The position numbers and the translations under genes are program-made. Of a stretch of DNA of 20,807 nucleotides, positions 9,891 to 10,115 are shown in pieces. How positions within the stretch are numbered: the first letter of the stretch is position 1; every line of letters starts with the position of its first letter. The stretch comes from Macrostomum lignano. Lineage: Eukaryota. Location of the stretch: contig NIVC01005217.1 of NCBI GenBank assembly GCA_002269645.1, forward strand, positions 1 through 20,807, given 5' to 3'. The notes beneath the pieces are model-generated. The model worked only from the letters and a program-made list of their open reading frames with translations, searched no databases and was not told the DNA's origin.

Positions 9891-10115
9891 CAAGTAGTGG
9901 TAGCCTTCTTCCCCGCCTTCTTTTAATGATACACCTCTAAGTGATGGCAGTTTTTCGTCTTCCTCTCCTCTGGTAGAAGGGCAATTGGTGGCAGTTTTCC
10001 CTAGCAACCTCTCTCAAAATGGTGGCTGATCCTCCTTTTCTTTTCTTTGGTAATGCGCCAAGATGGTGGTAGGTTCCCCTTTCTCTTTTATAATAGTACA
10101 TCAAACTGGTGGCAG
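9891..10115 (+). repeat. Degenerate array of six TRRTGGY(A)G motifs resembling the LTR-end/PBS junction
   Basis: Motif starts at 9895, 9942, 9986, 10020, 10064 and 10107 (spacing 47, 44, 34, 44, 43). Each is preceded by (C/T)AA-like bases, and the first five are followed by pyrimidine tracts. Confidence 0.65.

What the first reader, a model, noticed from the sequence alone, without database searches (positions are those of the whole stretch)
9891..10115. Periodic array mimicking the element's own LTR-end/PBS junction
Seen: TACATCAAACTGGTGGCAG (10097-10115) matches the real junction TACATCAAAATGGTGGCAG (4417-4435) at 18 of 19 positions. TCAAAATGGTGGC (10014-10026) matches 4421-4433 exactly. 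Four further variants complete a six-unit array with mostly 43-47-nt spacing and unrelated pyrimidine-rich spacers. My rough uniform-composition estimate puts the 18/19 match at about 1e-5 by chance in 8.6 kb. It lies between the antisense ORF and the cargo promoter. Inference, with alternatives: (a) decoys for 3' tRNA-Leu fragments, which are known to silence mammalian LTR elements through the PBS; (b) secondary tRNA-capture or priming sites; (c) a scar of junction duplication or chimeric origin; (d) an enhancer array. Related motifs occur at 4172-4180 (U5) and 6536-6546.
Basis: partly seen in the sequence, partly recalled or inferred. Interest (0 to 1): 0.75.

Follow-up and report, generated by a model that had tools for sequence, protein, structure and literature searches.

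The report
Primer-site copies inside a split retrotransposon
A young jumping gene carries in its middle a run of five to eight imperfect copies of the signal where its own copying starts; one genomic copy bears what is likely a trace of the tRNA primer being used there, and the element appears to share its work with a partner that lacks the protease it encodes.

Summary
The array is real: 18/19 identity to the element's LTR-end/PBS junction, never reached in 4,000 simulations, and only junction probes (5 of 2,195) match this well. It is a degenerate tandem repeat of 5-8 units; the window's six units arose by deletion from eight, and the spacers are related, not unrelated. Similarity covers the LTR end plus 9 PBS bases, then stops. 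One insertion, assembled twice, has a unit that continues as 11-12 bases of tRNA-Leu sequence into a deletion junction: likely a footprint of internal priming. A sister family has one internal site matching its own junction. Against a selected function: cores vary as much as spacers among recent copies (12/72 vs 28/154), and no copy ends or starts at a unit. The array lies in the intron of a likely spliced antisense RNA. Larger surprise: this Gag-protease element shares LTRs with an RT-integrase partner lacking protease (0 of 11 loci; 7 of 7 controls have one), in both families. The scan had not noted this on other DNA.

The parts
2306..4423 (+). 5' LTR (TGATGTAAC...GTTACATCA), after target-site duplication CTTT at 2302-2305
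   Evidence: no mismatches to the 3' LTR, only gaps
4172..4181 (+). PBS-like 10-mer in U5 (also 15035 in the 3' LTR); the sister family has one at about the same distance from its PBS
4417..4444 (+). True junction: LTR end, AAA spacer, 18-nt PBS (4427-4444) complementary to tRNA-Leu(AAG/TAG) plus CCA
4507..4525 (+). Degenerate junction copy in the leader (15/19)
6764..8239 (+). Gag-like ORF, 491 aa stop to stop
   Evidence: 22-29% to the first ORFs of complete gag-pol elements in the genome; no Pfam gag or PDB hit
8361..8741 (+). Aspartic protease ORF
   Evidence: Pfam gag-asp_proteas E 0.008; sister-family homologue E 3e-4; profile
9275..9732 (-). Exon 2 of the antisense ORF
9733..10710 (-). 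Likely GT-AG intron of an antisense transcript; contains the whole array
   Evidence: joint in contigs of X7 and X10; donor and acceptor context and in-frame join
9885..10115 (+). Array of six junction-like units (eight in most siblings), each an LTR-end-like stretch, A-run, 9-nt PBS-like core and pyrimidine tract
10647..12011 (+). Cargo ORF of unknown function, with TATA/CCAAT-like promoter at about 10450-10570 (read by eye)
10711..10951 (-). Coding part of antisense exon 1 (overlaps the cargo ORF)
11955..11972 (+). Site to which a unit extended by tRNA sequence is fused in one sibling insertion (L328, L336)
13055..13071 (+). Polypurine tract
   Evidence: sequence
13072..15287 (+). 3' LTR, followed by CTTT

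Best explanation
The array is a tandem expansion of a copy of the element's own LTR-end/primer-binding junction, and its units likely act on the genomic RNA as spare docking sites for the 3' end of tRNA-Leu, at which minus-strand synthesis can occasionally start. Shown: the match to the junction, the tandem structure, unit turnover, the tRNA genes, one unit extended by tRNA sequence at a deletion junction. Inferred: a second tRNA primes at a unit while the first primes at the PBS; the plus strand then runs from the 5' LTR through the array into that second tRNA and must jump to the other minus-strand piece. A correct jump gives a normal element and would pull the core back towards the tRNA sequence; a wrong jump gives the observed deletion with normal LTR ends. 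Inferred and least certain: that this is kept because it helps the Gag-protease half of a two-part element capture primer or copy a long RNA.
For: Specific match to the junction. Similarity over 17 units of three lineages runs from about -6 to +8 and vanishes at +9. Two lineages have last units at 18/19 with different single mismatches, so the junction itself is their simplest common source. Twelve tRNA-Leu genes carry the complementary end. One insertion (contigs C2392 and C237, same flank, 4-bp duplication, normal LTR ends) reads unit 6 + TGGTGGCAGCG(G) + sequence 1.9 kb downstream; 4 loci (this one event) show it, 99 other loci, duplicates included, do not. Sister family: a 16-nt pattern occurs 29 times in the genome, 21 at its junction and 8 at one internal site, nowhere else; its spacer length follows its own junction; all 11 loci, of 20 fetched without using the motif, that keep the flank keep the site, 12/13 invariant against 144/287 (p 0.003). 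Array RNA folds less well than shuffles (z +2.7, +3.5, +3.4, +1.4; five control stretches -1.4 to +1.6). Duplicated junctions are common in the LTRs of other Leu-primed families here (20 of 30 loci, family duplicates included, against 0 of 30 in a control region).
Against: Cores vary as often as spacers among 35 distinct eight-unit arrays (12/72 vs 28/154, p 0.85). At deeper divergence cores beat spacers (93/105 vs 211/279, p 0.005) but not the plain flank (160/174, p 0.4), and pyrimidine tracts slip easily. One lineage lost the best unit. Predicted duplexes are weak, -12 to -19 against -39 kcal/mol, and 15% of background windows reach -14. No copy ends at the last unit (0 of 23 pattern hits belong to the element) and no LTR is fused to a unit (0, against 59 true junctions). 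The footprint is one event and could also come from two template switches through the true PBS. The RT-bearing partner has no array. The sister site is not the only conserved block in its region (longest-run permutation P 0.09). tRNA copying cannot explain the LTR-end part of the unit.
Confidence: 0.45

Rival explanations
1. Neutral scar: one junction duplication was amplified by slippage and template switching into a hypervariable array with no selected role; the tRNA footprint is an accident.
For: No excess conservation among recent copies; unit number 5, 6 or 8, deletion between two cores, best unit lost once; junction duplication is frequent in this genome; partner does without it.
Against: Cores of paralogous units still match the PBS at 13-17 of 17 per position while spacers have split into two types; the cargo-less subfamily keeps the array; the sister family keeps its site across sub-lineages with about 76% flank identity.
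Confidence: 0.3
2. DNA-level array of transcription-factor sites (YY1-like; motif recalled, from no call) that serves the cargo and antisense promoters or silences them.
For: Sits about 450 nt upstream of a TATA/CCAAT-like promoter; spacings differ by about ten bases (33-34 vs 42-44); A at -3 is invariant in 17 of 17 units; an AAAATGGC stretch lies at 12199-12210.
Against: ATGG is intact in only 10 of 17 units and the recalled C after it in 0 of 17; 8 of 20 copies lack the cargo gene and promoter yet keep the array; the spacer follows each family's own junction.
Confidence: 0.1
3. Decoy for 3' tRNA-Leu fragments that would otherwise block the PBS.
For: Several accessible sites complementary to the CCA end; 3'-tRFs act on PBSs in mouse and need not use a seed (PMC12853362, PMC7515703, passages).
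Against: Only half the PBS is offered, so the true PBS binds far better; the seed target is absent; decoys on the same RNA would also take real primer; no small-RNA data were available; the partner that also needs protection has none.
Confidence: 0.07
4. Protein- or RNA-level signal: repeated Gag/RT/integrase docking sites for packaging, or antisense intron RNA that masks the PBS of both partners (one unit pairs with the junction at -28 kcal/mol).
For: Unit includes the LTR end as well as the PBS part; array lies in the antisense intron; present only in the Gag-protease half.
Against: No direct evidence; intron RNA is usually short-lived (general knowledge); the cargo-less subfamily lacks that splice donor region.
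Confidence: 0.08

Closest known systems
Second or bipartite primer-binding sites of Drosophila Gypsy and yeast Ty3/Ty1 (PMC1635307, passages)
   Same: Extra tRNA-complementary site inside the genomic RNA of a Ty3/Gypsy element.
   Different: Gypsy's second site pairs with the anticodon/T stems, does not prime and is single; these units pair with the same CCA end as the PBS, come with an LTR-end copy, are repeated, and one shows a priming-type footprint.
Tandem-repeat arrays and antisense ORFs between pol and the 3' LTR of plant Retand/Tat/Ogre elements (PMC11963269, passages; PMC7004042, term search only, no PBS or tRNA mention)
   Same: Variable tandem array in an internal non-coding region next to an antisense ORF; function unknown.
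   Different: Animal element; the unit copies the element's own junction. I recall PBS-like motifs being reported in Ogre 3' regions, but saw no paper for this.
Semi-autonomous Gag-Pro elements RLG_Sabrina_SA and RLG_Quinta of wheat (PMC9744471, PMC11302176, passages)
   Same: Gag (plus protease) without RT and integrase, mobilised by a partner with the same PBS and LTR ends.
   Different: There the partner is described as fully autonomous; here the partner shares 99% LTRs and lacks a protease in two families, so dependence looks mutual.
3'-tRF targeting of PBSs in mouse LTR elements (PMC7515703, PMC12853362, passages); tRNA-Gly at HIV deletion junctions (PMC12220202, abstract only)
   Same: tRNA-derived sequence acting at PBS-like sites or found at deletion junctions.
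   Different: Half-length sites; the tRNA is the element's own primer; no tRF data here.

Membership tests
Semi-autonomous Ty3/Gypsy Gag-Pro element (Sabrina_SA type) | LTRs, target-site duplication, PBS, PPT | tested here: met
Semi-autonomous Ty3/Gypsy Gag-Pro element (Sabrina_SA type) | Gag and protease without RT, RNase H, integrase | tested here: met
   gag identity rests on similarity to first ORFs of complete elements only
Semi-autonomous Ty3/Gypsy Gag-Pro element (Sabrina_SA type) | Partner with shared PBS and LTR ends that is fully autonomous | tested here: not met
   partner has RT-RH-IN but no protease in 0 of 11 loci, 7 of 7 controls positive; a complete partner elsewhere in the genome is not excluded
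Bipartite or second PBS (Gypsy, Ty3, Ty1) | Internal site complementary to the primer tRNA | tested here: met
   7-9 of 9 bases per core; duplex -12 to -19 kcal/mol
Bipartite or second PBS (Gypsy, Ty3, Ty1) | Second site pairs with a different part of the tRNA, allowing a bridge | tested here: not met
   match ends at +8; same 3' end as the PBS
Bipartite or second PBS (Gypsy, Ty3, Ty1) | Annealing shown biochemically | not testable with these tools
   one genomic footprint only
Internal tandem arrays of Retand/Tat/Ogre | Variable-number tandem repeat in an internal non-coding region beside an antisense ORF | tested here: met
Internal tandem arrays of Retand/Tat/Ogre | Plant Tat-clade RT | not tested
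   no tree built; partner RT is at most 54% identical to listed Ty3/Gypsy proteins, none assigned to a clade
3'-tRF decoy | Binding comparable to the PBS | tested here: not met
3'-tRF decoy | Leu 3'-tRFs present and bound | not testable with these tools
   only assembled contigs were available
YY1-type site array (motif recalled) | Intact ATGG core followed by C | tested here: not met
   ATGG in 10 of 17, following C in 0 of 17

The most novel reading that the evidence does not exclude
An animal LTR retrotransposon split into two mutually dependent genomes (Gag-protease and capsid-like-RT-integrase), whose Gag-protease half carries a selected central array of primer sites that splits minus-strand synthesis into segments, a minus-strand counterpart of the central polypurine tract, and tilts primer capture between the two halves.
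Probability: 0.22. Interest if true: 0.87.

Novelty: new variant of a known kind. Interest (0 to 1): 0.62.

Why it matters
Reverse transcription of LTR elements is taken to start at one PBS next to the 5' LTR. A natural array of half-length primer sites, with a genomic trace of use, offers a direct way to test internal tRNA priming and how PBS-like repeats arise and are refreshed. The protease-less RT partner, seen in two families, points to a stable division of labour closer to a segmented virus than to an autonomous element with a parasite; that is the more surprising part and holds whatever the array does.

Tried and rejected
Protein-coding repeat: unit lengths 33-47 are not in frame, no ORF follows the units. 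Known RNA family: 0 Rfam hits in 2300-15300. Hairpin array: both strands fold worse than shuffles. Tandem Repeats Finder does not report the array. Genome-wide pattern for three spaced cores: 595 hits against 234 for the reversed control; the first 100 listed were satellites and this family only, so it is uninformative for other families. Other elements: no internal cluster in 20 loci with related gag; in 13 other Leu-primed elements matches of 14/19 or more lay only in LTR copies (some stretches may not cover whole elements). Products predicted for priming at the last unit or second-strand transfer onto a unit were not found. The 17 loci with short protease-like pieces carry no array. No RNA holder listed on record: all runs are guessed RNA or unknown; uncovered leader bins in X2 and X7 were not used. 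The splice joint was not listed in X1, X2, X11, X14, X15, X17. Cargo protein: no Pfam or Atlas hit; gag: no longer homologues, no PDB hit. CTCF was considered by eye from a recalled motif and fits poorly. The Puf68/pre-tRNA route (PMC13537249, abstract only) was considered and dropped, since a third of the core pairs with CCA, which pre-tRNA lacks (general knowledge).

Full report
Setting. The window holds a very young LTR element at 2306-15287: LTRs without mismatches, a 4-bp target duplication, an 18-nt PBS and a PPT. Twelve tRNA-Leu(AAG/TAG) genes in the genome carry the complementary end. It encodes a Gag-like ORF, a protease, an antisense ORF and a cargo ORF, but no RT or integrase. Earlier scan notes name the animal as a flatworm; I did not test this.

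Observation. The 18/19 match, the 13-nt exact match and six units are present. None of 4,000 simulated internal regions scored above 16/19 or held such a cluster, and among 2,195 probes from the LTR and leader only the five over the junction match at 16/19 or better, which removes the worry of a probe chosen after the fact.

Structure. The DNA search scored 40 of 61 candidates. Of its 30 loci, 10 (the window included) have six units and 20 have eight; the six-unit form is a deletion between two cores. Among 82 loci with both anchors, duplicates included, there are 45 distinct arrays: 35 with eight units, 8 of the window's type, one diverged six-unit and one five-unit form. Spacers form a long and a short type related by descent. 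Over 17 units of three lineages (the script missed the first unit of two lineages), identity to the junction is high from about -6 to +8 and absent from +9. The window's last unit and that of the five-unit copy each match at 18/19 with different mismatches; the third lineage has lost that motif. I infer that the unit descends from a copy of the junction.

Conservation. Among the 35 recent arrays cores are as variable as spacers (12/72 vs 28/154); most shared core changes lie in units 2-4. Against the two diverged copies cores are better kept than spacers but no better than the flank. Selection on the cores is therefore not shown.

Sister family. A family with 42% gag identity and an unrelated LTR has the same gene layout and no array between antisense and cargo ORFs. 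It has one internal site about 1.5 kb before the 3' LTR that matches its own junction, including its shorter spacer: the 16-nt pattern has 29 hits in the genome, 21 junctions and 8 internal sites. Of 20 loci fetched without the motif, 11 keep the flank and all 11 keep the site (some are likely the same insertion); 9 lack the region. The site is 12/13 invariant across four sub-lineages against 144/287 around it (p 0.003), though a longer invariant block exists nearby (P 0.09 by permutation). Junction duplicates are also common inside the LTRs of other Leu-primed families, there mostly with the full PBS.

Footprint. One insertion, present on contigs C2392 and C237 with the same flank, a 4-bp duplication and normal LTR ends, has unit 6 continuing as 11-12 PBS bases and then joined to the end of the cargo ORF. 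Three to four of those bases come from neither unit 6 nor the downstream site and equal the tRNA. The simplest path is a second tRNA primed at unit 6, a plus strand that copied into it, and a mis-jump. Two template switches through the true PBS, or a substitution plus an insertion, could also give it. It is one event. Other predicted products were absent: no copy ends at the last unit and no LTR is fused to a unit, against 59 true junctions.

RNA. Contigs of two runs from two studies (X7, X10; RNA is the tool's guess; 28 letters on the short side) skip 9733-10710 with minus-strand GT-AG ends; the join is in frame. Six other runs laid, two of unknown kind, list no such joint. The array thus likely lies in an antisense intron and in the sense genomic RNA, where it is predicted to be poorly structured. 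Contigs cannot give strand, ends or small RNAs.

Rivals. A tRF decoy would offer only half the PBS. An enhancer for the cargo promoter is weakened because 8 of 20 copies lack cargo and promoter but keep the array, and a recalled YY1 core is broken in 7 of 17 units. A neutral scar remains the strongest rival.

Partner. Nine loci share this LTR (99%), the leader and the start of gag but carry a capsid-like-RT-RNase H-integrase frame, with no array. The sister family has an equivalent partner, RT 71% identical, which does carry its internal site. A local protease profile finds nothing in these 11 loci in six frames and scores E 1e-15 or better in 7 of 7 complete control elements. Mutual dependence is inferred; the gag search scored only 150 of 663 candidates, so a complete partner is not excluded.

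Literature. Ten searches of the open library found no array of junction copies and no mutually dependent Gag-protease / protease-less Pol pair; subscription journals are not covered. Seen as passages: PMC1635307, PMC9744471, PMC11302176, PMC11963269, PMC7515703, PMC12853362, PMC10886601, PMC13524379; term search without hits: PMC7004042; first third of 10.1101/2024.12.18.629116, which does not describe such elements in that part; abstracts only: PMC12220202, PMC13537249. No supplements were read; the lineage tables of the flatworm preprint may list the RT-bearing partner.

Verdict. A real, junction-derived tandem array with one likely trace of tRNA use and no proof of selection, inside one half of an apparently two-part retrotransposon: a new variant of a known kind, interest 0.62.

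Noticed in passing
L109/L110, L123, L128, L129, L322-L326 (family of the window); L245, L246 (sister family): Protease-less capsid-like-RT-RH-IN partners that share LTR and leader with the Gag-protease elements, in two families: apparent two-part retrotransposon.
   Followed up: yes
window 9275-9732 and 10711-10951, minus strand: Spliced antisense gene overlapping the cargo ORF; a TATA-like stretch on the minus strand near 12461-12467 (by eye) may drive it. Reading frames of exon 2 differ between copies.
   Followed up: partly
L061-L090, L351-L356: Many Leu-primed families carry one to three extra LTR-end+PBS copies, 35-120 nt apart, inside U5, and a 9-10 nt PBS-like motif further upstream.
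   Followed up: partly
L333-L335, L337, L339-L341, L344, L315, L318, L276-L277: Subfamily without the cargo gene (10179 joined by a short different linker to 12153) that keeps the array.
   Followed up: partly
L316:2886-3045 (C3414); C4958 and C546 share the left flank: An insertion whose right end is LTR, PBS, 135 nt of leader, then 12 nt of LTR end and the target duplication; either a junction-extension intermediate or a deletion from the tandem copy at the same site.
   Followed up: partly
L260-L275, L279: A piece like window 8308-9118 at about 80% identity, most with the same internal gap, occurs in 17 of 17 loci without the rest of the element, apparently carried by another repeat.
   Followed up: no
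window 10647-12011; L096, L101: Cargo protein without Pfam or Atlas match, 21-23% identical to the cargo of the sister family.
   Followed up: partly
window 548-943, 1293-1580, 15674-16027, minus strand: The element sits in an intron of a sulfotransferase gene (weak Pfam hit; heparan sulfate 3-O-sulfotransferase by recalled motifs).
   Followed up: no
window about 16147-16240: tRNA-like sequence with GTA anticodon and a likely intron, by eye; ARAGORN reported nothing.
   Followed up: no
L112:6719-8431: Related complete Gypsy elements carry a J-domain/TatD-like third ORF, as earlier scan notes report.
   Followed up: no
window 2760-3040 and 13530-13900: U3 holds repeated ATTGTTCTC-like motifs; the 3' LTR has a 95-nt stretch absent from the 5' LTR.
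   Followed up: no
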